Below, one piece after another: positions 3,644 through 51,269 of a stretch of 64,000 bases of DNA. Where the stretch lies: assembly GCF_056746865.1 (NCBI RefSeq), contig NZ_CM163382.1; one strand, 5' to 3'. Position 1 is the stretch's first letter; the number at the start of each line of letters is the position of its first letter. A program made the translations under genes and the position numbers. The notes below the pieces were generated by a model. The model worked only from the letters and a program-made list of their open reading frames with translations, was not told the origin of the DNA and searched no databases.

Positions 3644-4342
3644 ATGACCGAAAACGCTGTTCTCCAGTTACGCGCCGAGCGTATTGCGCGCGCAACACGT
3701 CCTTTTCTTGCCCGCGGAAATCGCGTTCGTCGCTGCCAACGCTGTCTTTTGCCAGAGAAATTATGTCTCTGTTCGACAATTACCCCAGCACAAGCAAAAA
3801 GTCGCTTTTGTTTGCTGATGTTCGACACCGAGCCAATGAAGCCCAGTAATACCGGGCGTCTGATTGCTGATATTTTGCCTGATACCGTTGCGTTTCAATG
3901 GTCGCGTACCGAACCCTCGCAAGATTTGCTGGATCTGGTGCAAAACCCGGACTATCAACCAATGGTGGTCTTTCCCGCCTCGTATGCTGACGAGCAACGG
4001 GAAGTGATCTTCACACCACCTGCCGGTAAGCCACCGCTGTTTATCATGCTCGATGGCACCTGGCCAGAAGCTCGCAAGATGTTTCGTAAAAGTCCGTATC
4101 TGGATAATCTTCCCGTCATTTCCGTCGATCTTTCCCGGCTTTCTGCCTATCGCCTGCGTGAAGCCCAGGCTGAAGGCCAATATTGTACTGCCGAAGTAGC
4201 CATCGCACTGTTAGATATGGCCGGCGATACCGGGGCGGCGGCAGGGTTAGGCGAGCATTTTACCCGCTTTAAAACACGCTATCTGGCAGGAAAAACGCAA
4301 CATCTGGGTAGCATCACAGCAGAACAGTTAGAAAGCGTTTAA
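3644..4342 (+). CDS. yfiP: DTW-domain tRNA-uridine aminocarboxypropyltransferase YfiP (TapT)
   Basis: ORF 3593..4342 contains CQRC...LCLC cysteine motif and DGTW motif; start approximate. Confidence 0.75.
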   Translation: MTENAVLQLRAERIARATRPFLARGNRVRRCQRCLLPEKLCLCSTITPAQAKSRFCLLMFDTEPMKPSNTGRLIADILPDTVAFQWSRTEPSQDLLDLVQNPDYQPMVVFPASYADEQREVIFTPPAGKPPLFIMLDGTWPEARKMFRKSPYLDNLPVISVDLSRLSAYRLREAQAEGQYCTAEVAIALLDMAGDTGAAAGLGEHFTRFKTRYLAGKTQHLGSITAEQLESV

Positions 4343-4373
4343 AATCATTCGGTCACTTCTGCGGGAGACCGGT

Positions 4374-39960: not shown

Positions 39961-40323
39961 GGGGCTGATTCTGGATTCGACGGGATTTGCGAAACCCAAG
40001 GTGCATGCCGAGGGGCGGTTGGCCTCGTAAAAAGCCGCAAAAAATAGTCGCAAACGACGAAAACTACGCTTTAGCAGCTTAATAACCTGCTTAGAGCCCT
40101 CTCTCCCTAGCCTCCGCTCTTAGGACGGGGATCAAGAGAGGTCAAACCCAAAAGAGATCGCGTGGAAGCCCTGCCTGGGGTTGAAGCGTTAAAACTTAAT
40201 CAGGCTAGTTTGTTAGTGGCGTGTCCGTCCGCAGCTGGCAAGCGAATGTAAAGACTGACTAAGCATGTAGTACCGAGGACGTAGGAATTTCGGACGCGGG
40301 TTCAACTCCCGCCAGCTCCACCA
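39961..40323 (+). ncRNA. ssrA: tmRNA (transfer-messenger RNA, 10Sa RNA)
   Basis: Starts GGGGCTGATTCTGGATTCGACGGG, contains tag-coding GCAAACGACGAAAACTACGCTTTAGCAGCTTAA and ends GGTTCAACTCCCGCCAGCTCCACCA; 363 nt. Confidence 0.97.
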
Positions 40324-40390: not shown

Positions 40391-40489
40391 TGTTGCATGT
40401 GTGGTCATGATCTCTGTATGAATCTTGACCTTTTGGCACCATGTTTAGCACCACGGTATCGTGGGGCTAAAAAAGCGTGGTGCTAAAAC

Positions 40490-41737
40490 ATGCCTAAGCA
40501 ACTGAAACCCTTAACAAATGTGGAGATCGCTGGCGCGAAGCCCCGTAGCACGGATTATGAGCTACGGGACGGTGAAGGCCTGTACTTGCTGGTTAAGACT
40601 TCAGGGAGGAAGGCCTGGCATTTCGAGTATTATCATCCCGTCACCAAAAAGCGCACCAAAACCAGCCTTGGCCCTTACCCGGTCGTTACACTGGCCATGG
40701 CTCGCGAAACTCGCACGAAATACAGACGACTGCTCTGGCAGGGCATCGATCCCCGTCAACACTTAGCAGGAATAGCCGAAGAAAAACGCCTCCAGAATGA
40801 ATGCACGCTGGAAAAAGTTGCGGAACAGTGGCTCAAAGAGAAGAAACGGACCAGCGACCTTAGCGAAGATCACGCCAAAGATGTCTGGCGCTCGCTGGAG
40901 ATGCACGTCTTCCCTTCTCTGGGCAGTACGCCCGTCACCGAGATCCGCCCGAAGATGCTCAAGGAACACCTCACCCCGCTGGAAGAACAGGGCATCCTCG
41001 AAACGCTGCGCCGGGTTATCTCACGGCTCAATGAAATCTTCCGCTTCGCCATCTCCGAAGAGCTTATCGAGTTTAACCCAGCAGACAACCTGGTCGCCCG
41101 CTTCAAGAAACCGAAAAAGCAGAACATGCCCGCCCTTCCCCCCAGCGAACTGGGCAGACTAATGTTGGCACTACAAAACGCCTCTATCCGCAAGGAAACA
41201 CGCTGCCTTATCGAATGGGAGCTACTGACCTGGGTTCGCCCCGGCGAAGCCGTTAGCGCCCGCTGGTGCGACATCGATATGAAAAAAGCGGAATGGCGTA
41301 TCCCTGACACCTTTATGAAGATGAACCGTTCACACACGGTGCCGCTCAGCAAACAGGCGCTGCGTGTTCTTCAGATCATGGAGCCCGTCAGCCGCCATCG
41401 TCCGTGGGTCTTCCCCAGCATCCGCAAACCGCTGGAGCACATGCACCAGCAGACCGCGAACGCCGCGCTTATCCGCATGGGGTTCGGCGGTGAGCTGGTC
41501 GCCCACGGCATGCGCAGCATCGCCAGAACGGCGGGCGCAGGTCATTTTCCCCGTGAAGTTCTGGAATCTGCACTGGCACACCAGAAAGAAGACGAGATCG
41601 AAGCGGCCTACAATCGCAGCGACTATCTGGAACAAAGGCGACCGCTCATGCAGTGGTGGGGAAACTACGTTGATGCCGCCAGACGGCAGGCATTGCTCGG
41701 TGAAGAAGAACCGCTGCGGATCGTGGAAGGAGAATAA
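40490..41737 (+). CDS. P4-type tyrosine integrase
   Basis: 415-aa ORF; clear similarity to recalled CP4-57 IntA (MxxQxKPLTxxEIxxAKP...NRSDYLEQRRPMMQWW), with HGMRSIAR and YNRSDY catalytic-region motifs. Confidence 0.92.
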   Translation: MPKQLKPLTNVEIAGAKPRSTDYELRDGEGLYLLVKTSGRKAWHFEYYHPVTKKRTKTSLGPYPVVTLAMARETRTKYRRLLWQGIDPRQHLAGIAEEKRLQNECTLEKVAEQWLKEKKRTSDLSEDHAKDVWRSLEMHVFPSLGSTPVTEIRPKMLKEHLTPLEEQGILETLRRVISRLNEIFRFAISEELIEFNPADNLVARFKKPKKQNMPALPPSELGRLMLALQNASIRKETRCLIEWELLTWVRPGEAVSARWCDIDMKKAEWRIPDTFMKMNRSHTVPLSKQALRVLQIMEPVSRHRPWVFPSIRKPLEHMHQQTANAALIRMGFGGELVAHGMRSIARTAGAGHFPREVLESALAHQKEDEIEAAYNRSDYLEQRRPLMQWWGNYVDAARRQALLGEEEPLRIVEGE

Positions 41738-41738
41738 T

Positions 41739-42383
41739 GTGACCAGTCCCATTCGTCAGAATCTGTTTGAACGGGAATGCGATATGCCGCTGCTGGAAGC
41801 GCGGCATCTCGCCCTTCTGCTTCTCGGCCTTGATGCTTCCCAACCTGCAAACGCCCTGCCGGAAGAACATCAGGAAAATTACCGTATCCTGCACGACGCC
41901 ATCAGTCGCACCATCAAAGCAACGGGCATGGTCAGCGCCCCGGCGAACAAACGCATGTTCTATGCCGATGAAATGTTCGCGCTGGCCTGGCGGCTTATTG
42001 ATGACGAACTCACGCCGCCAGAAATTAAGGCCCGGAGCCTGAAGGCAGTGATGAAACTGTCACGCAACAGCCGTGGCCGCAAGTGGCTGAAGACGCTCGG
42101 CGACGATGCGCTGCCGGATCTCACTGCTTCCACACAACCTTCCCTGCGTGGGATGCATAAGCGCGACAAAGCACGGGAGAATACTGCCAGGCTCTGCTGG
42201 TTACTGGTTCAGCTTCTGGTTGATGAGACTGACGGACGGTATGGCACGTCTGATAAACCGGCTTCGGATCGGATACTTCGGAAGCTGAAGGAGCTGGCGC
42301 AGGAGCGGGAATTACCGTCAGACGGGCTTGGGCGAGGGACGTTTTATGAGGTTTTGAAGATGGGAAGGGAGAAGGAAGTTTAG
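41739..42383 (+). CDS. hypothetical island protein (about 214 aa)
   Basis: In-frame GTG one codon after the integrase stop with GGAAGGAG 7 nt upstream; the longer ORF 41364..42383 overlaps the integrase and is trimmed. Confidence 0.5.
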   Translation: MTSPIRQNLFERECDMPLLEARHLALLLLGLDASQPANALPEEHQENYRILHDAISRTIKATGMVSAPANKRMFYADEMFALAWRLIDDELTPPEIKARSLKAVMKLSRNSRGRKWLKTLGDDALPDLTASTQPSLRGMHKRDKARENTARLCWLLVQLLVDETDGRYGTSDKPASDRILRKLKELAQERELPSDGLGRGTFYEVLKMGREKEV

Positions 42384-42732: not shown

Positions 42733-43905
42733 TTAGAGAACCTTAGACTGTTCTGGGAACCAGTTATTAATTATATGTCTTCGACAGACTTTAGATATTT
42801 CAAATACCTGTCGTGACACTAATGCACCATCAGGATGGCGCTGGTCAGGTATGTCATTTTCTATGTCATAAAAATTATGCGTTATTTCTGGGGGAAAGAA
42901 AACGTTTTTGTCTAAAGGCACGCTTGCATAGGGATTATAATACACATGCAAACCATCAAAATGAGTTTCCTTGTAGTCCCTTGTTCGGCACATTACAATA
43001 TCCGCGCCAACAACCTCATTGTTGTAGAATTGTCGCTTCGTAGTAACATAATGGTCAGGACCAAGTTTTCTCGTATGAGAACCTTCGTTCTTCATACCTT
43101 CATTGGCAATAAAAACATTCACATCAAGAGCTCGGAATCTCGTATATCGGACATATCGATCGACCCGACTCTGAACGATAGCCTTACCAAAAGTACCTGT
43201 CGTTGAAAACACGATAGCACTGATTTCTTTGTATGAGTCATTTGTAAAAATACCTAAAGGTATTTCAGTGTCTTCATTTTTTTTAATCGATAAAACCCTT
43301 CTTTGCCTACCATTTACTAAATCTCTCATCGTAGGTTCTTCAATGCCAAACAATACCCGGTTAATGATTGTATTATTCTGGGTTAAAGATAGATCTGAAT
43401 CAAATGGGGCCAATGCTAACACAAAAGGCTTACCGATTACATGTTCCATTGTTGAGTATGGGAACTTCTTACCATTAATTCCGGTAAAGAGATCGCGCTT
43501 ATCTTTAATTTTCCCAAGAAGTTTTAGCGTAGATTGATGCTTAAACTTAGCTTCACTGAAAATTTCACTGACTGGCGGTTTATGGGGCTTGTCAGAGACC
43601 ATAGCCTCTACGTTAAATTTATAACCTAATGGCGTGCTAACACAAAAATCAGGACTGTCTTTTGTATAGTCAACCGAATACCCCAAACGAATAAACATCT
43701 CATTTAGATATAATTCCCACATAGAAGAATTAAAGGTAGTCTGAAATTCGTTAATAAATTTAGTTTGTTCACCACTGCGTTCCAGTAATCCGCGTCCCCA
43801 TGATTGGATCACCGCCCTAACAGGAGCAAGTTTAGGATCTGTGTAGATTGTTTTAAAATTGTGATTTAGTTTATTTCTAGCTATTTTTGTTGAGAAGAGA
43901 TCCAT
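42733..43905 (-). CDS. hypothetical 390-aa protein, opposite strand, AT-rich
   Basis: Long uninterrupted ORF with good RBS (agaggtaaataATG); no family recognised. Confidence 0.7.
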   Translation of the reverse strand: MDLFSTKIARNKLNHNFKTIYTDPKLAPVRAVIQSWGRGLLERSGEQTKFINEFQTTFNSSMWELYLNEMFIRLGYSVDYTKDSPDFCVSTPLGYKFNVEAMVSDKPHKPPVSEIFSEAKFKHQSTLKLLGKIKDKRDLFTGINGKKFPYSTMEHVIGKPFVLALAPFDSDLSLTQNNTIINRVLFGIEEPTMRDLVNGRQRRVLSIKKNEDTEIPLGIFTNDSYKEISAIVFSTTGTFGKAIVQSRVDRYVRYTRFRALDVNVFIANEGMKNEGSHTRKLGPDHYVTTKRQFYNNEVVGADIVMCRTRDYKETHFDGLHVYYNPYASVPLDKNVFFPPEITHNFYDIENDIPDQRHPDGALVSRQVFEISKVCRRHIINNWFPEQSKVL

Positions 43906-44356
43906 TATTTACCTCTATAAACACTTTGTAAAACTAAACATGTGTATTTTACTGCGCTGATTGTCGAACATATGCTTCAAATTGTAATGCGGTATTCTAC
44001 ATCAGAAAAACCTCTTTTATATTTTCCTCATTAAATTTATTTACACCGAAAAATAGCCGCATGAATCATGTCTGAACAGATGAACTTCTCTAATATAGCC
44101 TAAATACCTACGACTGCGCTATAAAGAGGGAACCTCAAGCACTAATAGCACAAAGAAAATATGCGAACACAAATTTGACGCGAAACTATGACTTAGATAG
44201 GATGAATCTAGGTGGTGATGGTCACCTGGCGCCTGTCTCGCAAAGCAATAGCCCATCGTTCAGAAGTATACCAAATACTTGGCCGCCATCCATTATGACG
44301 CTGCCCGGTTAGCAGGCTATCGGTATCCAAAGCGTTACTTTATTGGAGGTACAGCC

Positions 44357-44896
44357 ATGTCTGACTATTCATACCTAAGCATTCTTAAAACGTGCGCTAA
44401 AAAGCTGGCTCGCATTCAGAAAATTAAGCTTTCCAAAGCACTCGAAATCGTTGCCCGTGACGCGAAATTCACCAGCTACCATGAGCTGTCCGAAGTCGCA
44501 AAACGTGCCCCGCTAGAACAACGGCTGGTTTTCGCTGCAATAGGCGAAGATACTCAAGAGGATGTGATTTATCGCGATGAGATTTTTTATGCCATAGACC
44601 GCGAGGTGGAAGATATGCTCTCCGGCGACATAGCGGAAACAAACGCCTATGGTTTTAGCATAGAGAATCTGGAGGCAACAAGCATAAATTACGACCCAAA
44701 GCGAGGCATTCTGGTCGTCCAAGTCATATTTGATTATCAGGGTGAACAAGATTCTGAACGCCCTTTCTCTGGTTCGTCCTTTGAAATTGTTGCGAAAATG
44801 GAGCTACTTCTTCGCGACAATGTATGGAGCCTCGTAGAAAATAGTCTGGAATTGACCTCTGTTAATTCAAATGTCGATAATGACTGGTACGATTAA
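44357..44896 (+). CDS. hypothetical acidic 179-aa protein
   Basis: ATG at 44357 preceded by GGAGG; ORF 44279..44896 trimmed. Confidence 0.6.
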   Translation: MSDYSYLSILKTCAKKLARIQKIKLSKALEIVARDAKFTSYHELSEVAKRAPLEQRLVFAAIGEDTQEDVIYRDEIFYAIDREVEDMLSGDIAETNAYGFSIENLEATSINYDPKRGILVVQVIFDYQGEQDSERPFSGSSFEIVAKMELLLRDNVWSLVENSLELTSVNSNVDNDWYD

Positions 44897-45497
44897 GACA
44901 TATAACAGTAGGAGGCATTCCAAATTTTTGGCGGAGTGCCTTTTTAGTAACTATATCCAGATGAAATCATCGAGTTATCACATGAGCATCCATCTTACGT
45001 GTACTCAAAACACTTATGGGCTTCTAAATTCAGGAAGTCCCTACTCCGCTTGCTGGCGCTTCTTTGAGCCTCGTGGCGTCCATATACACCAATTAGGCCA
45101 GACCATGCTCAAACAACTTGTCGAGAAATGCTATGTGCAAAAACCACTGGACATGTTCTCGATGACAGCAGGCAAACTAACTGGGCTTGATCAATCTGGG
45201 CCTAAACTGGCTTCCATCATATGCAGAGGGATAGAGCAGGCCAAAGATGTACAACTCGGAGAGTTACTTTTTGCCTGCGGTATCTATGGTGTGGAAGAAG
45301 AAGAAGCCTGGTTACTAGCTAAAAGATTCAGTAATCTTGAGGCCTTGTATGGTGCCAGCATAGATTCTCTGATGAGTTATAACCTTCTTAATGAGGCAGT
45401 AGCTGTCAATACGTATAACTTCTTCCGTCATCCGCTCAATGTGTCGGCTCTTAACGAGTTACAAACAGAAGGTGGATTGAAGGTGCGCCATGGATAG
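44871..45497 (+). CDS. protein with NAD-dependent DNA ligase-like C-terminal helix-hairpin-helix region (start uncertain; possible remnant)
   Basis: C-terminal ~100 aa (GPKLASIICRGIEQAKDVQLGELLFACGIYGV...LEALYGASIDSLMSYNLLNEAVAVNTYNFFRHPLNVSALNELQTEGGLKV) aligns by eye to the LigA HhH region; alternative starts TTG 44928 (AGGAGG upstream) or ATG 44961. Confidence 0.5.
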   Translation: MSIMTGTIKTYNSRRHSKFLAECLFSNYIQMKSSSYHMSIHLTCTQNTYGLLNSGSPYSACWRFFEPRGVHIHQLGQTMLKQLVEKCYVQKPLDMFSMTAGKLTGLDQSGPKLASIICRGIEQAKDVQLGELLFACGIYGVEEEEAWLLAKRFSNLEALYGASIDSLMSYNLLNEAVAVNTYNFFRHPLNVSALNELQTEGGLKVRHG

Positions 45498-45682
45498 AAT
45501 TAACACCAAGGCTGTGCCCGGCCTTTTATCTATGCAACGTAGCCGATGACAGTTAACGGTGAGACAGCAACACCTGTTGTAACATGTTTGTACTCGTGCA
45601 TTGCCATCCGTAGGCCTAAACATATCTGACTCCCACAGGATGGGGATAAAATACAACATTTGCATTTTCAATTTGTTATCGA

Positions 45683-45732
45683 AAAATCATTAGTCCTGAT
45701 GGGAAATAATATCTTCCCGGACTAATGATTTT
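45683..45732. promoter_or_regulatory. 50-bp region with perfect 14-bp inverted repeat upstream of alpA (operator or terminator)
   Basis: aaaatcattagtcc (45683-45696) and ggactaatgatttt (45719-45732) are exact reverse complements; followed by repeated tatccgg motifs. Confidence 0.45.
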
Positions 45733-45831
45733 CTATCCGGACTCCACTTTTTTATCCGGGCCTATACCTCCCCTCATCGTTCCGCGCTATAACCGCTCCG
45801 ACACTCTGTTCCCGTCCCGTGAGGTGCAATC

Positions 45832-46047
45832 ATGAAAACCAGTGCAGACAGTAACGATGCTTTTCCCGAAAGCGGCAACGTGCGTATGCGGCAGGTAGTC
45901 CAGTTTCTGGCGATGAGTGAATCGTCGGTTTACCGCCTGATTAAAAACACCGACTTTCCCCGCCCCGTCCACCTCTCTTCCCGACTGGTGGTCTTCGATG
46001 CTGCTGAAATCCGTCAGTGGCAACAGCGCCGCGCCGCCATCCGTTAA
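45832..46047 (+). CDS. alpA: AlpA-family phage transcriptional regulator (HTH)
   Basis: 71-aa ORF with RMRQVVQFLAMSESSVYRLIKNTDFPRPV helix-turn-helix typical of AlpA. Confidence 0.85.
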   Translation: MKTSADSNDAFPESGNVRMRQVVQFLAMSESSVYRLIKNTDFPRPVHLSSRLVVFDAAEIRQWQQRRAAIR

Positions 46048-46082
46048 TCCACGCTCAGGGATGAGCCGACTGATACCCCGTC

Positions 46083-48152
46083 ATGAAACGCGCCCCTTTT
46101 CTCTGTAAGCAGTCTCCGGACCGCACGCTCGAAGTGGTGATCCTTGCCGGAAGCCTGGCATGGGAGACCTCACACGTGTGGCGAAAAGATCCCGACCGGG
46201 AAGATGATGTTCCCCCGATGGTACTCGGCCCGGATGAACTGGCCGATCTGAGCAATCTGACCATTATCAGGCCCGACACGCTCTACGTCCGGGTACTTCG
46301 CACCGGCGATATCAGTGAAGAAGAGCTGCTGAAAATTGCCGTAAAACTGGCGCACGCGGGCGTGCAGATGGCCCGGCTGATGACCCCTGACGGTGAGTTA
46401 CTGGAGAACTGGACCGGACAGCTTGAACGCCTGCGACAGGAAAGACCTTCTGACATCCTGCCGGATCACTTCCGCCTCGATGAAGAAGCACTGTGGTTTG
46501 ATAAGCTCACCGAACGGCGCGACGGTGAAAGCGATGTCCAGCCCCAGCGCATCTGTTCCCCTCTGCGCGTCACTGCCATCACCTGCGACAGCCATGACGG
46601 CAGCTATGGCCGCCTGCTGGAATGGCACACCACCACCGGGCAATTGCGGCGCTGGGCCATGCCGATGGCGATGCTCAGCGGCAACGGCGAGGAGCTGAGG
46701 CGCATTCTGCTGGAGAACGGCCTGACCTATATCTCCACCCGCCCTGCCCTGCGCAGTCTGCTGTGCGAATATATCTCGCGGTCACTCCCCGGACGCCGGG
46801 TCACCTGCGCGGAGAAAACCGGCTGGCACAACGGCGTGTACGTGCTGCCGGATGAGGTTATCGGTCCCGATGGCGACAACGTCATTCTCCAGGGCAGCCA
46901 CTACCTGACTGGCGGCTTTGCACAATCCGGTACGCTGGCAGAGTGGCAGGAGCAGGTCGCCGCGCTCTGTGCAGGCAATTCACGGCTGGTCTTTGCCGTC
47001 TGCTGTGCGCTGGCCGCCCCGCTGCTGCGCCTGACAGGAACGGGCGGCGGAGGCTTTCATCTGCGCGGTGAGTCCACTGACGGTAAGACCACGGTGATGA
47101 AAGTGGCCGCTTCCGTCTGTGGCGGGACGGATTACTGGCACTCCTGGCGGGCCACCGGGAATGCGCTGGAAGGAATTGCCAGCCGCCACAACGATGCCCT
47201 GCTGCCACTTGATGAACTGCGCGAAGTGGACCCGCGTGAGGCCGGGATGATTGCCTATATGCTGGCGAACGGACAGGGCAAGGGGCGCGCCCGCACCGAT
47301 GGCGAAGTGCGTAACCGCAGGCACTGGACGCTGCTGCTGTTCTCCACCGGGGAGCTGTCGCTGGCGGAACACACCGAATGCGCCGGGGAGCGCCTCTACG
47401 CCGGGATGGACGTGCGCATGGTACAAATCCCCAGCGACACCGGGCAGCATGGTTCGTTTGAGCAGTTGCACGGGTTTGCCAGCGGCCAGCAGTTCGCCGA
47501 TACTCTCTGCGACCGGGTGGCCCGCTTCCACGGCACCGCCTTTCGTGCCTGGCTGGCCTTCCTCACCAGCGACCTGGACGCCAGCACCACGCTGGCGAGA
47601 GAGTTACTTCGCCGCTACCAGACCGCCCTGATGCCGGACAACGCCGGAAACCAGGTGCAGCGCATCGTGGCCCGTTTTGCCCTGCTGGCGGTGGCCGGGG
47701 AGATAGCGACACTGAACGGTATCACGGGCTGGCAGGAAGGCTCGGCGTATGGGGCGGTGCAGATCTGCCTTCACGCCTGGCTGAACGAGCGCGGCCATAT
47801 TGCCAACCAGGAAGATGAAGGCGTGCTGGCGCAGATCAAGCGGTTCATTACCGCGCACCAGTACAGCCGCTTTGCCTCGTGGGATGGCCCGGACCGCCCG
47901 CTGAATATGGCAGGCTTTCGCCGGGTGGAAAAAGATCCGCTGACGGGCGAGGAACACACGCTGTTCTTCATCCTGCCTGAGGGCTGGCGGGAAATATGCC
48001 GGGGATTCAGTCCTGCCAGAGCGGCCAGATTATGCCAGGAAGCGGAATGCCTGCTGCCCGGCAGCGACGGGAAATACCAGTCGCAGGTTCGCCTGCCGGA
48101 GATCGGCAAAGCCAGAGTCTACCGCCTCACCTCCCGCATCCTCAGTATCTGA
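46083..48152 (+). CDS. P4 alpha-like primase/helicase-type replication protein (P-loop NTPase C-terminal half)
   Basis: 689-aa ORF, Walker A GESTDGKTTV, position after alpA as in P4-like and PICI elements; GC-rich unlike the cargo. Confidence 0.75.
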   Translation: MKRAPFLCKQSPDRTLEVVILAGSLAWETSHVWRKDPDREDDVPPMVLGPDELADLSNLTIIRPDTLYVRVLRTGDISEEELLKIAVKLAHAGVQMARLMTPDGELLENWTGQLERLRQERPSDILPDHFRLDEEALWFDKLTERRDGESDVQPQRICSPLRVTAITCDSHDGSYGRLLEWHTTTGQLRRWAMPMAMLSGNGEELRRILLENGLTYISTRPALRSLLCEYISRSLPGRRVTCAEKTGWHNGVYVLPDEVIGPDGDNVILQGSHYLTGGFAQSGTLAEWQEQVAALCAGNSRLVFAVCCALAAPLLRLTGTGGGGFHLRGESTDGKTTVMKVAASVCGGTDYWHSWRATGNALEGIASRHNDALLPLDELREVDPREAGMIAYMLANGQGKGRARTDGEVRNRRHWTLLLFSTGELSLAEHTECAGERLYAGMDVRMVQIPSDTGQHGSFEQLHGFASGQQFADTLCDRVARFHGTAFRAWLAFLTSDLDASTTLARELLRRYQTALMPDNAGNQVQRIVARFALLAVAGEIATLNGITGWQEGSAYGAVQICLHAWLNERGHIANQEDEGVLAQIKRFITAHQYSRFASWDGPDRPLNMAGFRRVEKDPLTGEEHTLFFILPEGWREICRGFSPARAARLCQEAECLLPGSDGKYQSQVRLPEIGKARVYRLTSRILSI

Positions 48153-48171
48153 GTGCCATCTCGCGTGTCTT

Positions 48172-48382
48172 AAAAAAAGGTGGTACAGGGTGGGACAAGT
48201 GGTACACGCAGAGCTGGCGCGGGTTTCAGCGTCCCACTTTAGATAATTTGGTTTAAAAAAAGTGGTACAGAGTGGGACAGCCGTTGCTGAATCTGTCCCA
48301 CTTTTCTGACTGGTATTTTTCAGGTGGTACAGCGCAAAGCCACGGCTGGCGCGGTTGTACCACTTGTCCCACCTGTACCACC
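48172..48382. repeat. iteron-like direct and inverted repeats (putative replication origin / cis replication region)
   Basis: ggtggtacagggtgggacaagtggtacac, gtggtacagagtgggaca, ggtggtacagcgc and the inverted copy ggttgtaccacttgtcccacctgtaccacc read directly, immediately 3' of the primase gene. Confidence 0.6.
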
Positions 48383-48824
48383 TTAAAAACAGAAGAAATG
48401 AAAATGGCGAAAAGGGACTGCAAAAGCAAAGGCTGAAAGGAAGAGAGAATAAGGGGAACGGACTTACTCTTAAATGGATAACCTATATTTTTATATTCGT
48501 ACCATTTACATGATGGAGTGCAAAGTTACCATTCAACATGATTTGGATTAGATAGCAAAATTCTCTATAGAATGTTTTCTAGATTTCAGAGGGATTTAAC
48601 GATAGCTTATCTCACAAATCACAAATCGGTCAAAAAATATACAGAAAACCAAGTTTTGCCCAGAAATCCTTTTAAAATTTTTGAGTTAAAAATCATTGTG
48701 TTGTATTAATTTCAGGACGCCACATGTCAAATATCGACACCCAATATAGTGTATAAAAACACAGGAGGACTCATTGTGATTTATATAATAAAATAACCTT
48801 ATACATCTTTCTGGAAACCAAGTA

Positions 48825-49811
48825 ATGGTTAAAATTCACATTTTAGATGCCGGACATGGTGATTGCTTGTTAGTAGACTGCGATGGTGTCAAATTGTTAA
48901 TTGACGCTGGCCCAAGTACATTTAGGTATAGAAAAAAAATTTCAGCCAAGTTAGCTGAACTTCTGAATGGCGAGTCTGTTGATATCGCTTTTGTAACTCA
49001 CAATGATGATGACCATATCGGTGGTTTCAAATACCTAATTGAAAATAAAATAAACATCAAGAGATTTGTATTCAATAGTTTATCTAACATTAAACATGTA
49101 ATAAAGAATTCAAGCAATAAAATATCGACCAAACAAGATATAAATCTTGATAGAATAGTGAAAGATGGAAGTTTTGTCTTTTCGACACTAACTTCAGATG
49201 ACTCTCCTATTTTAATCAGAAATATAAAAATAACACCTATTACTCCTTCAAAAAATATCCTTTTAAAATATTTAGAACAACAAGAGCGTAAAAACACAGA
49301 AATTAAAATATCATCTTCATCTGAAAAATATAGTATTAAAGAAGCACTGCAGTTGCTAAGCAATGGAAATGATATGTTTGTAAAGGATCCATCGGCAACT
49401 AATAAAACCAGTTTATCATTTATGATTGAGTATGGGAATTTTTGTGGATTATTCCTTGGTGATGCACACGAAGAAGACATCTACTCATATATGGCTAATC
49501 ATTGTGCCAATAGAAAAATATCATTTAACGTTGTTAAGTTAGCACATCATGGTAGTGAAAAAAACACGAGTTCACGGTTATTGAAGTTAATTGGTACAAC
49601 AGAATATATCATATGTGCGAATAAAACCAAGCATAATCATCCAAATAATTTAACTCTTGCAAGAATTTTAATACATGAACAAGAACCTAAAATTCATATG
49701 AGTAGCAGCAATCAGGAGATAATAAATTTACTCAATCAAATAAATTTATTAGGCTTCGGCATTACTGCAACCCATTCTGAAAATGGAGTTAATACTTTAA
49801 TCTATGAGTAG
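48825..49811 (+). CDS. metallo-beta-lactamase-fold protein, ComEC-like (putative nuclease/hydrolase)
   Basis: 328-aa ORF: ILDAGHGDCLLVDCDGVKLLIDAG start, THNDDDHIGG metal-binding-like motif, AHHGSEKNTS motif; very AT-rich. Confidence 0.7.
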   Translation: MVKIHILDAGHGDCLLVDCDGVKLLIDAGPSTFRYRKKISAKLAELLNGESVDIAFVTHNDDDHIGGFKYLIENKINIKRFVFNSLSNIKHVIKNSSNKISTKQDINLDRIVKDGSFVFSTLTSDDSPILIRNIKITPITPSKNILLKYLEQQERKNTEIKISSSSEKYSIKEALQLLSNGNDMFVKDPSATNKTSLSFMIEYGNFCGLFLGDAHEEDIYSYMANHCANRKISFNVVKLAHHGSEKNTSSRLLKLIGTTEYIICANKTKHNHPNNLTLARILIHEQEPKIHMSSSNQEIINLLNQINLLGFGITATHSENGVNTLIYE

Positions 49812-51269
49812 AAAAAATGCTGTAAAAATAAAAGTCAATGATTCGGAATCAAGTGGCTATTTTTTCAAAGCAAGCTCCAAGGATGATTCTTTTGTAATTT
49901 CATCCAAGCACGGCCTTTGTTCTAGACAGTCAGATTGTGAAGAATTTCTTGATAATGTTCAGAATTGTTGCCGTTTATGCACTCAAGATTTAAATATTGA
50001 CAATATATCTTTTGAAATTGAAGGAAATAAGAAGCTAAAGCCAATAAGTTATTTCAGTCTTGAAAACAAAGATATTGTCATCACCAAAGTGGATGGGGTA
50101 TCTAATTATCCTTTAAGGATAGGAAAGATAGAAAAAGAAAAGTATTATACTTATGGTTACAAGAGTAAATGTGATAAGCCTGGCAGAATTTTATTAAATG
50201 AGCCAGATTTATTAGATGGGATTTGTTATTTCAATATATGTTCCGATGCAACACCTGAGTTGATTGAGAAAAGTGAAGAATATTATGGAATTTCAGGTTC
50301 ATTAGTTTTTGATTCTCCAGAAAAAGATGTTTTAACCGCACATGCAGTAATAACAACTAATGAAACCAATAATGACTTAGGTTCAGAAATATTACATGAT
50401 ATTGATTTCAAAGAAATTAATAACTTTTTCGGCTGTGAAGTATTCTTGGGTAAAAAACTCCAATTTCAACTAGATGATACTTTTAGTAAAAATTTTTCAA
50501 AGATTGGAGAAGTGCTTGTTAGCGACAAACTCCAAATTGAAATATTTATTTCATCTTATAAAGGTATACCATATTTTAATTTGACACCAATTGCTGATGC
50601 ATTAATTCAAAGTAAGTTTTATTATGTTTTTGGAAATGTTAGTAGAAGTGATCATATAAATATAATCGCTGCATCAAACATTATACTCAACAAATCTCAT
50701 TTAGAACCAGCTAATAAATTATTAACTAGCAAATTAACTGAATCGATATTATCAGCACCTCATATTTATTCCACTAGCATTGATGATAATAATTATCATC
50801 ATATTCATTTTAAACAAATGACTTCTGGTGATATTGAGCTCATAATATCATGTTATGGTGGAGGAGATGATCTTCCTAAAGATATAAATGGCACTTTAAC
50901 TGAGTTGTTACACAATATAAATACTTATAACTTAAATAAAAATTCAATAATTGAGAGGTCTTTTCTTAATCAAAAATTTACAGATGCACAATGCGAAATT
51001 TTATATGAGATTTTTTTGAGCGATTAACTGATTCAATCGACAGAATTTCATTATTGCATGTAATTCCTTTGGACCATTATTTAATAAAAGATAAATCAGA
51101 AATTAAAAATGAAATTATTACCATTGTTGAGAAAGCGTGTCAAGAATTAGACAGCAACATTTTAGATTATCTTGAGCATGGAATATCTATAAATCTATTA
51201 ATATTTCCAACTAATAATAAAGATGAATTATCAGGGTTAATGCAAAGGTTGATAAATAATTATGAATGA
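49804..51269 (+). CDS. protein with trypsin-like serine protease-type motifs; reading frame interrupted at a T7 run (ORFs 49804..51027 and 51054..51269 probably one gene)
   Basis: Start overlaps the MBL gene stop by 8 nt (ATGAGTAG); motifs SSKHGLC, NKDIVITKV, GISGSLVF; frame 1 stops at 51027 while frame 0 stays open from the T7 run (51011-51017) to 51269 and has no ATG or RBS of its own. Confidence 0.6.

What the first reader, a model, noticed from the sequence alone, without database searches (positions are those of the whole stretch)
45683..45790. Perfect 14-bp inverted repeat and tatccgg repeats upstream of alpA
aaaatcattagtcc and ggactaatgatttt form a perfect inverted repeat around a near-palindromic spacer, followed by three tatccgg(a/g)c repeats before the alpA start. 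This looks like an operator/promoter architecture for the island's regulatory switch, or a terminator for the upstream genes.
Basis: seen in the sequence. Interest (0 to 1): 0.3.

Follow-up and report, generated by a model that had tools for sequence, protein, structure and literature searches.

The report
alpA promoter with phased protein-binding repeats
The stretch upstream of alpA looks like the control region of a mobile phage-defence island: three evenly spaced repeats, conserved across many bacteria, sit where an activator protein would switch the gene on, while the eye-catching perfect hairpin occurs only in this E. coli lineage and is probably secondary.

Summary
A perfect 14-bp inverted repeat (45683-45696 / 45719-45732) is present. 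So are three direct CCGG(A/G)C repeats at 45717, 45737 and 45756, spaced 20 and 19 bp; only two of them read "tatccgg".

I compared 31 distinct homologous alpA upstream regions from E. coli, Citrobacter, Raoultella, Buttiauxella and metagenomes. The two features behave differently:
- **Repeats.** The three GGAC repeats, their 20/19 spacing, their T-tracts and the 30-31-nt distance from the third repeat to an invariant TATAAC are kept in all 31. This includes a Buttiauxella locus whose AlpA is only 63-71% identical.
- **Hairpin.** The inverted repeat is perfect only in the window lineage. Other sequences pair at 2-11 of 14 positions, with no covariation.

The geometry puts the repeats near -41, -60 and -80 of a promoter that has no -35 element. 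That suggests an activator-dependent alpA promoter. The binder is probably a winged-helix AlpA/excisionase-type protein, as in PICI satellites where AlpA activates its own promoter.

The hairpin is a quasi-palindrome that became perfect in this lineage. At most it may act locally as a read-through terminator. The island's replication origin is a separate iteron field at 48170-48385.

Verdict: an ordinary but cleanly defined regulatory region of modest interest.

The parts
45551..45617 (.). Left-most conserved block of the alpA regulatory module (agttaacggtgagacagcaacacctgttgtaacatgtttgtactcgtgcattgccatccgtaggcc). Everything to its left is variable cargo. Function unknown.
   Evidence: Alignment of 28 homologues. 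No consensus RNA structure on either strand. No codon-like substitution pattern (my reading). Unique in the window.
45666..45678 (+). Conserved AT-rich block TTTCAATTTGTTA. It resembles an IHF site (WATCARNNNNTTR with one mismatch) and could also be an H-NS nucleation region.
   Evidence: TTTCAAT..TTA is nearly invariant in 28-31 sequences. It matches only the relaxed IHF pattern. The assignment is inference.
45683..45696 (.). Left arm of the perfect 14-bp inverted repeat (AAAATCATTAGTCC).
   Evidence: In homologues the matching columns pair with the right arm at only 2-11 of 14 positions.
45701..45718 (.). Inner stem-loop inside the spacer: GGGAA (45701-45705), 8-nt loop, TTCCC (45714-45718).
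   Evidence: Folds. Only 53.6% of cells are paired across homologues.
45719..45732 (.). Right arm of the inverted repeat (GGACTAATGATTTT). It overlaps repeat 1 and ends in TTTT, followed by CTAT.
   Evidence: The arm differs from the family consensus GGACTCATTACTTT at three positions, and each change creates a Watson-Crick pair with the left arm.
45717..45723 (+). Direct repeat 1 (CCGGACT), centred near -80 of the proposed promoter.
   Evidence: GAC is invariant and T nearly invariant in 28 sequences. Spacing of 20 bp to repeat 2 is kept in all, including Buttiauxella L066.
45737..45743 (+). Direct repeat 2 (CCGGACT, preceded by TTTTCTAT), centred near -60.
   Evidence: CCGGA is invariant..
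45756..45762 (+). Direct repeat 3 (CCGGGCC here, CCGGACC in most homologues, preceded by TTTTTTAT), centred near -41, where a -35 element would be.
   Evidence: Its GG starts 30 nt before TATAAC in the window and in L066; four homologues carry a 1-nt insertion there (31 nt).
45788..45793 (+). Proposed -10 hexamer TATAAC of the alpA promoter. No -35 match lies 16-18 bp upstream (TACCTC). Predicted start near 45800.
   Evidence: TATAAC is invariant in 31/31 sequences, including L066 where the flanks diverge. The consensus scan finds no complete sigma-70 promoter on the + strand. The start site is inferred, not measured.
45821..45826 (+). Shine-Dalgarno GAGGTG, 5 nt before the alpA ATG.
   Evidence: Sequence; conserved.
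45832..46047 (+). alpA, 71 aa, Phage_AlpA winged-helix DNA-binding protein. First gene of the alpA-DUF927 pair.
46083..48152 (+). DUF927 replication protein (related to part of the P4 alpha primase-helicase, but with no TOPRIM match). It starts 35 nt after alpA.
48170..48385 (.). Replication-origin-like iteron field: about 14 copies of GTGG(T/G)ACA in both orientations, directly 3' of the DUF927 gene. It shows that the CCGGAC repeats are not the origin.

Best explanation
The region 45551-45831 is the cis-regulatory module of the alpA-DUF927 operon. This operon belongs to a PICI/P4-related island integrated at ssrA that carries phage-defence genes. The core of the module is a sigma-70 promoter with a -10 (TATAAC, 45788-45793) but no -35. 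Three head-to-tail sites of the form T-tract + CCGGAC(T/C) lie two helical turns apart, centred near -41, -60 and -80. I propose that a small winged-helix protein binds these sites cooperatively on one face of the DNA and recruits RNA polymerase, with the promoter-proximal copy standing in for the missing -35. The most likely binder is AlpA itself, giving positive autoregulation. A helper-phage Xis/Cox-like inducer is the alternative. An upstream AT-rich IHF/H-NS-like block and a further conserved block probably set basal silencing. The perfect 14-bp inverted repeat is not part of the conserved design. It is an ancestral quasi-palindrome (about 9-11 of 14 pairs in the closest homologues) between the flank of site 1 and a sequence 27 bp upstream, and it became perfect in this E. 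coli lineage. That could have happened by a templated (strand-switch) mutation or by recombination plus selection. Its only plausible local role is to stop read-through from the co-oriented cargo genes upstream. Shown here: the sequence features, their conservation and their geometry. Inferred: the -10 and start site, activation, the identity of the binder, and how the palindrome arose.
For: The repeats, the 20/19 spacing and a 30-31-nt distance to TATAAC are kept in 31/31 distinct homologues, including Buttiauxella L066 with AlpA 63-71% identical. This is the only phased triplet in 64 kb. No complete sigma-70 promoter is found on the + strand. alpA is PF05930 and is followed by a DUF927 gene and then an iteron origin. 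That is the gram-negative PICI layout, in which the origin lies downstream of pri and AlpA activates its own promoter (PMC10111431). Published work shows that PICI AlpA activates PalpA and that helper phage induces it by an unknown route (PMC6092414; PMC11773190). Excisionase-type winged-helix proteins bind head-to-tail direct repeats and can regulate promoters (PMC7498355; PMC3936717). The experimentally studied EcCICFT073 also has phased direct repeats upstream of alpA: ACAAC x6 and GACACAA x2, at 10-bp spacing. For the inverted repeat: it is perfect only in the window lineage, its fold z-score is -6.95 against -2.65 to +1.30 in the others, and pairing and covariation do not exceed shuffles (135/500 and 204/500). 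All four arm differences from L104 convert a mismatch or wobble into a Watson-Crick pair.
Against: No transcription start, expression or binding data were available, so the -10 rests on conservation alone. The 19-20-bp spacing is twice the 10-11 bp usual for excisionase-type arrays. No GGACT array lies near attL or int, so if AlpA is also the island's excisionase its att sites are either different or at the unseen attR. A sister AlpA clade (L064/L067) with a similar recognition helix has a partly different repeat, CTTTCACTG(G/T)A, so protein-site co-variation is uninformative. Most homologues are close relatives found through an exact 17-mer beside the -10, which inflates apparent conservation downstream of the repeats. 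Only L066 is an independent outgroup. The AATGAT right-arm allele also occurs in L089 and L160 without a perfect palindrome, so a single template-switch event is not proven.
Confidence: 0.5

Rival explanations
1. In this lineage the inverted repeat is an intrinsic, possibly bidirectional, terminator. It insulates alpA from transcripts reading through from the co-oriented cargo genes at 44357-45497. Untimely alpA expression would trigger the island and is toxic in related systems.
For: The hairpin is strong. If the four outer A-U pairs open, a 10-bp stem is followed by UUUUCUAU on the + strand and UUUUUCGAU on the - strand (sequence). The upstream genes are co-oriented, and the terminator-like site after the HhH gene has a weak T-tail, TTATCTATGC. 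AlpA overexpression is toxic in CP4So and CP4-57 (PMC8034616).
Against: The terminator scan did not call it. The stem is AT-rich, with a 22-nt interior and a 4-nt bulge. It is not conserved. Hairpin stability in homologues does not follow upstream gene orientation. It lies inside the conserved regulatory module and overlaps site 1.
Confidence: 0.2
2. The three repeats are bound by a helper-phage protein (Cox/Xis-like or another inducer) rather than by AlpA. They would then be the element through which a helper phage switches the island on, as P2 Cox switches on P4 at PLL.
For: Helper phages induce PalpA in PICIs without AlpA being strictly needed, and the inducer is unknown (PMC6092414; PMC11773190). 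P2 Cox activates the promoter upstream of the P4 alpA homologue vis through arrays of repeats (PMC3936717). The motif occurs nowhere else in the island.
Against: No cox boxes or Ogr/Delta dyad are present. The island has no recognisable packaging or late genes in the RefSeq annotation, so dependence on a helper is unproven. Conservation of the sites across genera alongside a conserved AlpA fits a self-encoded binder equally well.
Confidence: 0.2
3. The inverted repeat is an operator for a dimeric repressor that keeps alpA off.
For: Perfect dyad symmetry close to a promoter. An HTH gene lies on the opposite strand at the far side of the cargo, at 53941-54420.
Against: The half-sites are 36 bp apart start to start, and the GGACT/AGTCC cores 27 bp apart centre to centre, which puts them on opposite faces. 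The dyad is absent or degenerate in 30 of 31 homologues, although the E04 island also carries an HTH gene at the equivalent place. The centre lies near -92, too far upstream to occlude polymerase.
Confidence: 0.05
4. The repeats mainly provide DNA curvature (T-tracts in phase every two helical turns) for H-NS/IHF-type silencing of a horizontally acquired promoter. They would not be sites for a specific activator.
For: The T-tracts are phased (sequence). A conserved AT-rich IHF-like block lies upstream. H-NS silences the alpA promoter of the ssrA-integrated prophage CP4So (PMC8034616).
Against: The most conserved bases are the G+C-rich CCGGAC cores, not the T-tracts. No strict H-NS or IHF consensus is present.
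Confidence: 0.1
5. The repeats are iterons of the island's replication origin, bound by the DUF927 protein.
For: They are direct repeats next to the replication gene.
Against: A dense field of about 14 GTGG(T/G)ACA iterons of a different sequence lies immediately 3' of the DUF927 gene, at the position expected for PICI-type origins.
Confidence: 0.03

Closest known systems
Gram-negative PICI alpA promoter (EcCICFT073, EcCIMP1): AlpA positive autoregulation and helper-phage induction
   Same: The gene order matches: int, then alpA (PF05930), then primase/rep, then the origin 3' of rep, all on one strand. Phased direct repeats lie upstream of alpA in both.
   Different: The AlpA proteins differ. 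The repeat motif and period differ: ACAAC / GACACAA at 10 bp in EcCICFT073 against CCGGAC at 19-20 bp here. This island has defence cargo between int and alpA and no annotated capsid or packaging genes. Autoactivation was not tested here.
Satellite phage P4 late promoter PLL upstream of vis (an AlpA homologue), activated by P2 Cox and by Delta/Ogr and regulated by Vis
   Same: In both, an AlpA-family gene lies upstream of an operon that leads to a DUF927-containing replication protein. P4-like elements in E. coli carry a TOPRIM+DUF927 alpha protein. Both have an activator-dependent promoter with arrays of repeats for a winged-helix protein.
   Different: There are no cox boxes and no TGT-N12-ACA dyad. 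The replication protein gives no TOPRIM match. No psu/delta/sid genes are present. The vis upstream region of a P4-like element has GTAATAC repeats instead.
Excisionase/RDF binding arrays (lambda Xis X1-X1.5-X2, 186 Apl, P2 Cox)
   Same: Head-to-tail direct repeats on one DNA face, flanked by A/T-rich DNA, for a small winged-helix protein, sometimes at promoters far from att. From my own knowledge, the lambda X1 and X2 specific sites are 20 bp apart start to start, with a low-specificity site between them.
   Different: The usual period is 10-11 bp; here the recognisable sites are 19-20 bp apart and nothing similar lies at the half-way positions. No matching array lies next to attL. Binding was not tested.
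alpA of the ssrA-integrated prophages CP4-57 (E. coli K-12) and CP4So (Shewanella)
   Same: An island at ssrA with int next to the tmRNA gene and an alpA gene downstream. alpA expression must be kept low, and H-NS silences PalpA in CP4So.
   Different: AlpA here is only 24% identical to K-12 AlpA. The CP4So GATAATG motif is absent.
Quasi-palindrome 'perfection' by template-switch mutation (known from E. coli mutagenesis studies; cited from my own knowledge)
   Same: A cluster of nearby substitutions all act to make an imperfect inverted repeat perfect.
   Different: A single event was not demonstrated. Parts of the derived arm also occur in lineages without the perfect repeat (L089, L160).

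Membership tests
Excisionase/RDF-type direct-repeat binding array | Three or more repeats in the same (head-to-tail) orientation | tested here: met
   CCGG(A/G)C at 45717, 45737 and 45756, all on the + strand. Conserved in 31/31 homologues.
Excisionase/RDF-type direct-repeat binding array | Repeats about one helical turn (10-11 bp) apart | tested here: not met
   Spacing is 20 and 19 bp. The half-way positions hold TTTTC / TTTTA, with no GGAC-like sequence (sequence).
Excisionase/RDF-type direct-repeat binding array | Bound cooperatively by the element's winged-helix protein | not testable with these tools
   Needs EMSA or a footprint with AlpA.
Excisionase/RDF-type direct-repeat binding array | Matching sites in an att arm | tested here: inconclusive
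   None near attL or int. attR is not in the window.
Intrinsic (rho-independent) terminator | G+C-rich stem with a short loop | tested here: not met
   The outer stem has 5 G-C pairs in 14, and its interior is 22 nt with a bulge. The consensus scan did not call it.
Intrinsic (rho-independent) terminator | T-run directly after the stem | tested here: inconclusive
   TTTTCTAT is present, but its first four T are paired within the stem. The - strand has TTTTTCGAT.
Intrinsic (rho-independent) terminator | Hairpin kept among homologues at the same place | tested here: not met
   z = -6.95 in the window against -2.65 to +1.30 elsewhere. No covariation.
Gram-negative PICI (phage-inducible chromosomal island) | int, alpA and primase/rep on one strand, with the origin downstream of rep | tested here: met
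   Layout as described in PMC10111431.
Gram-negative PICI (phage-inducible chromosomal island) | Capsid, packaging or other helper-exploiting late genes | tested here: not met
   None in the RefSeq annotation up to the srl-like genes. The cargo is PD-T7-5, an LmuA-like protein and a split HamB. Only annotation and PADLOC were checked; no PHROG search was run.
Gram-negative PICI (phage-inducible chromosomal island) | Induction by a helper phage and AlpA autoactivation | not testable with these tools
   Experimental.
P4-like satellite, PLL-type promoter | Ogr/Delta dyad TGT-N12-ACA or cox boxes TTAAA(G/C)NC(A/C) upstream | tested here: not met
   No match in 45540-45832 on either strand.
Rfam RNA families | Match to any curated covariance model | tested here: not met
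   No hit at E <= 1 in 44000-47000.

The most novel reading that the evidence does not exclude
The phased T-tract + CCGGAC array is the so far undescribed cis-element through which AlpA or a helper-phage inducer turns on a widespread family of enterobacterial alpA-DUF927 defence islands. In addition, the perfected palindrome of the E. coli lineage acts as a gate: as a cruciform in DNA or a hairpin in RNA it hides the distal site or stops read-through, changing the induction threshold of this particular island.
Probability: 0.1. Interest if true: 0.5.

Novelty: new member of a known kind. Interest (0 to 1): 0.3.

Why it matters
alpA is the master switch of PICI-type satellites and related islands, and these elements carry and spread phage-defence systems. 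This island carries PD-T7-5, an LmuA-like protein and Hachiman-like genes. [quoted passage not shown] I found no paper that defines the DNA sites involved. This analysis offers a precise, testable candidate: three conserved sites with fixed geometry relative to a -10 element. Mutating them would show directly how such an island senses its trigger. It also shows that the most conspicuous feature, the perfect hairpin, is the least conserved one.

Tried and rejected
**Known RNA.** Rfam found no hit at E <= 1.

**Conserved RNA structure in the upstream block.** RNAalifold gave none on either strand.

**Small protein in the upstream block.** A 25-codon minus-strand ORF starts at 45607, but the substitutions are not codon-like, so I rejected it (my reading).

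**Replication origin.** Rejected, because a separate iteron field lies at 48170-48385.

**P4-type activator sites.** No Ogr/Delta dyad, no cox boxes, and no strict IHF or H-NS consensus.

**Searching for the architecture elsewhere.** A pattern scan of viral contigs for the triple CCGGAC layout gave 58 hits. One was a true homologue (L027). I left L008 unchecked, and the rest looked like high-GC or tandem-repeat chance matches.

**Hairpin strength against upstream gene orientation.** No relationship, with small numbers.

**Co-variation of the AlpA recognition helix with the repeat motif.** Uninformative, because the sister clade's repeat still contains GGAC.

**attR and AlpA sites beside it.** attR is not in the window.

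**P. aeruginosa AlpA and its GGGACG element.** That protein is larger (contact residues 128-142) and acts as an antiterminator, so I treat the resemblance to CGGGAC as unexplained and did not use it.

**Minus-strand promoter-like match in the hairpin loop** (TAGAAA-18-TATTAT). By eye its -10 hexamer is not conserved in the other lineages.

Full report
**Context.** The window is E. coli chromosome. A tmRNA gene (ssrA, 39961-40323) is followed by an island. Its genes, as annotated in identical RefSeq genomes, with the window ORFs, are:
- a tyrosine integrase (40490-41737);
- a hypothetical gene (41739-42383);
- a minus-strand gene (42733-43905);
- two small plus-strand genes, the second encoding a helix-hairpin-helix protein that ends at 45497;
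- alpA (45832-46047);
- a DUF927 replication protein (46083-48152);
- low-GC cargo.

Pfam confirms Phage_AlpA (E = 2e-23), DUF927 (E = 1e-106) and the integrase domains. PADLOC identifies the cargo as defence genes: PD-T7-5, an LmuA-like metallo-beta-lactamase-fold protein, and a HamB helicase split into two ORFs. The finding therefore lies in the 334-bp gap between cargo and the alpA-rep core of a PICI/P4-related defence island.

**Checking the observation.** The repeat finder reports arms at 45683-45696 and 45719-45732, 14 nt long, 100% complementary and 22 nt apart. An inner GGGAA/TTCCC stem tightens the fold to -29.3 kcal/mol with z = -4.3 over 91 nt, or -23.1 kcal/mol with z = -6.95 over 63 nt. 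Perfect 14-bp inverted repeats with loops of 3-50 nt occur twice in the window and never in 100 Markov simulations. The repeats are TCTTCCCGGACT, TCTATCCGGACT and TTTATCCGGGCC, with cores at 45717, 45737 and 45756, spaced 20 and 19 bp. So there are two "tatccgg" copies, not three, but three CCGG(A/G)C. No other phased triplet exists in the 64 kb.

**Homologues.** The region is identical in 132 of 5426 complete E. coli genomes, and two carry a diverged version. Further copies came from several sources:
- a scan of species-representative genomes: Citrobacter youngae, C. sedlakii and Raoultella ornithinolytica;
- contigs encoding AlpA relatives: Buttiauxella, C. portucalensis, and a Salmonella/metagenome sister clade;
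- one viral contig;
- a metagenome scan with the 17-mer TTCCGCGCTATAACCGC.

Together these gave 31 distinct upstream sequences. One caveat applies. The 17-mer scan can only return close relatives, so conservation around and downstream of that 17-mer is partly built in. The Buttiauxella locus L066 is the one real outgroup. Its AlpA is 63% identical in the alignment and 71% by local match.

**What is conserved.** All 31 sequences keep three co-oriented GGAC(T/C) cores, each preceded by a T-run. All keep exactly 20 and 19 bp between them, with no indels between repeats. All keep an invariant TATAAC. L066 reads ...tatCGGACT-N15-CGGACT-N14-GGACT-N25-TATAAC, the same 20/19/30 geometry, although its flanks differ. 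The distance from the third core to TATAAC is 30 nt in most and 31 nt in four.

There is no -35-like hexamer 16-18 bp upstream of TATAAC; the sequence there is TACCTC. The consensus scan finds no full sigma-70 promoter on this strand. If transcription starts about 7 nt after the hexamer, near 45800, the cores are centred near -41, -60 and -80. That is the classic layout of an activator-dependent promoter, with the proximal site replacing the -35. This step is inference.

The conserved module extends left to about 45551. It includes an AT-rich TTTCAAT..TTA block (IHF-like with one mismatch) and a 65-bp block of unknown role. Everything further left differs between lineages. The 65-bp block shows no consensus RNA structure on either strand and no coding-like substitution pattern.

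**What is not conserved.** In register with the window's 14 pairs, the other sequences form 2-11 Watson-Crick pairs. Fold z-scores are -2.65 to +1.30, against -6.95 in the window. On a 28-sequence alignment, 60.9% of cells pair. That is no better than shuffles (135/500 reach it), and the covariation score is also unremarkable (204/500). In-register pairing does exceed slid registers (27-45%), which is expected for an ancestral imperfect palindrome and for a structure taken from one of the sequences.

The closest left arm belongs to L104 (AAAATCATTAGTTC), paired with the family-consensus right arm GGACTCATTACTTT: 10 Watson-Crick pairs plus one wobble. The window differs from L104 at four arm positions, and each change turns a mismatch or wobble into a Watson-Crick pair. 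My rough estimate for four random substitutions doing this is below 1e-5. Three of the four changes fall in an otherwise well-conserved stretch next to site 1.

This is the signature of a quasi-palindrome made perfect, either by a templated strand-switch mutation or by recombination and selection. It is not a clean single event. L160 has the window's right half exactly but a different left half that keeps only an 8-bp outer stem, and L089 carries AATGAT without a palindrome.

**Is the hairpin a terminator?** The HhH gene has its own terminator-like hairpin at 45508-45525, though with a poor T-tail. The inverted repeat was not called by the scan. It is AT-rich with a long structured interior. 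If its outer A-U pairs open, however, it presents a 10-bp stem followed by UUUUCUAU, and UUUUUCGAU on the other strand. Hairpin strength in homologues does not depend on whether the upstream gene is co-oriented. I keep a local insulating role as a 0.2 rival.

A dimeric-repressor operator is unlikely. The dyad is missing in nearly all relatives, the half-sites are far apart, and the centre sits near -92.

**Who binds the repeats?** This cannot be tested here. The arguments for AlpA are:
- It is a small winged-helix protein of the excisionase type.
- Such proteins bind head-to-tail repeats cooperatively and can regulate promoters.
- In EcCICFT073, where this was shown, I found arrays of direct repeats between int and alpA: ACAAC x6 just after int and GACACAA x2 about 60-70 bp before the start codon, both at a 10-bp period.

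The arguments against are the 20-bp period, the absence of the motif near attL, and the lack of informative co-variation with the recognition helix. A helper-phage Cox/Xis-like inducer is a live alternative, by analogy with P2 Cox acting at P4 PLL upstream of vis. However, no cox boxes or Ogr/Delta dyad are present.

The repeats are not the replication origin. About 14 GTGG(T/G)ACA iterons fill 48170-48385 immediately after the DUF927 gene, which is where PICI origins lie.

**Comparison with known systems.** Functionally the region resembles a PICI PalpA or P4 PLL control region. Membership in the RDF-array class is incomplete: orientation and clustering are met, the one-turn spacing is not, and binding is untested. 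The island has the PICI core order but no annotated packaging genes, so I do not file it as a PICI. P4-like elements in E. coli share the DUF927 domain within a TOPRIM-containing alpha protein, whereas this replication protein gives only a DUF927 match. H-NS silencing of alpA is documented for the ssrA prophage CP4So and may apply to the AT-rich upstream blocks, but no consensus motif is present.

**Verdict.** The conserved feature, and probably the functional one, is the triple phased repeat at an activator-dependent alpA promoter. The perfect inverted repeat is a lineage-specific elaboration. This is a new, well-delimited example of a known kind of control region. It is useful as a concrete target for experiments on how alpA-type islands are switched on, but not surprising. 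Interest 0.3.

Noticed in passing
window 48170-48385: A dense field of about 14 iterons, GTGG(T/G)ACA, in both orientations, including 18-bp and 13-bp perfect inverted pairs. It lies directly 3' of the DUF927 gene and is probably the island's replication origin.
   Followed up: partly
window 42733-43905 (-), 48825-51027, 51262-53786: Defence cargo flanks the alpA-rep core: PD-T7-5 (E = 2e-137); an LmuA-like MBL-fold protein plus a 407-aa partner with no match; and a Hachiman HamB helicase split into two ORFs (51262-52464 and 52503-53786), which could be a pseudogene or a two-part variant. No HamA was recognised.
   Followed up: partly
window 45551-45617: A strongly conserved non-coding block marks the left edge of the alpA module (consensus ...GAGATAGCGACAGCTATTGTGAAGTGTTTGTAGTCGTGCGTTGCCATTCGTTAACC). 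It has no consensus RNA fold, no coding signal and no second copy in the window. Its role is unknown.
   Followed up: partly
window 40444-40487: A perfect 12-bp inverted repeat, TTTAGCACCACG / CGTGGTGCTAAA, with a 20-nt spacer ends 3 nt before the integrase ATG (40490). It could be an operator or a translational control element for int.
   Followed up: no
window 53813-53850: The second perfect 14-bp inverted repeat of the window (AAGATAAATAGGTT / AACCTATTTATCTT, 10-nt loop) lies between the HamB C-terminal ORF and the convergent HTH gene. It is probably a bidirectional terminator.
   Followed up: no
window 45810-45819: A tandem duplication, TCCCG TCCCG, in the alpA 5' untranslated region. It is present only in the window lineage and in metagenome contig L160; all other homologues have one copy.
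   Followed up: no
window 40324-64000: No second copy of the ssrA 3' end (12 nt or longer) lies downstream, so the right end of the island (attR) is beyond the window or degraded. srl-like PTS genes and further genes follow the defence cargo, which suggests a composite island.
   Followed up: partly
L064 / L067 (about 90-130 nt upstream of alpA, which starts at 4001 / 1423): A sister AlpA clade (69-72% identical in the alignment; Salmonella and metagenomes) has two CTTTCACTG(G/T)A repeats 20 bp apart in place of CCGGACT. The period is the same but the motif partly differs.
   Followed up: partly
L168 4187-4246 and 4444-4470 (E. coli CFT073, EcCICFT073): The experimentally studied PICI has six ACAAC repeats at 10-bp spacing just after int, and GACACAA repeats close to alpA. 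It also has AT-rich inverted repeats between them (4246-4281 TAAAAATCA/TGATTTTTA; 4334-4363).
   Followed up: partly
L090, L113, L122, L069 and relatives (columns aligned to window 45688-45703): One subfamily has a local hairpin, (G)CCATCA-GYTT-TGATGG(C), at the position of the window's left arm. It is mutually exclusive with the long inverted repeat and has no clear covariation.
   Followed up: no
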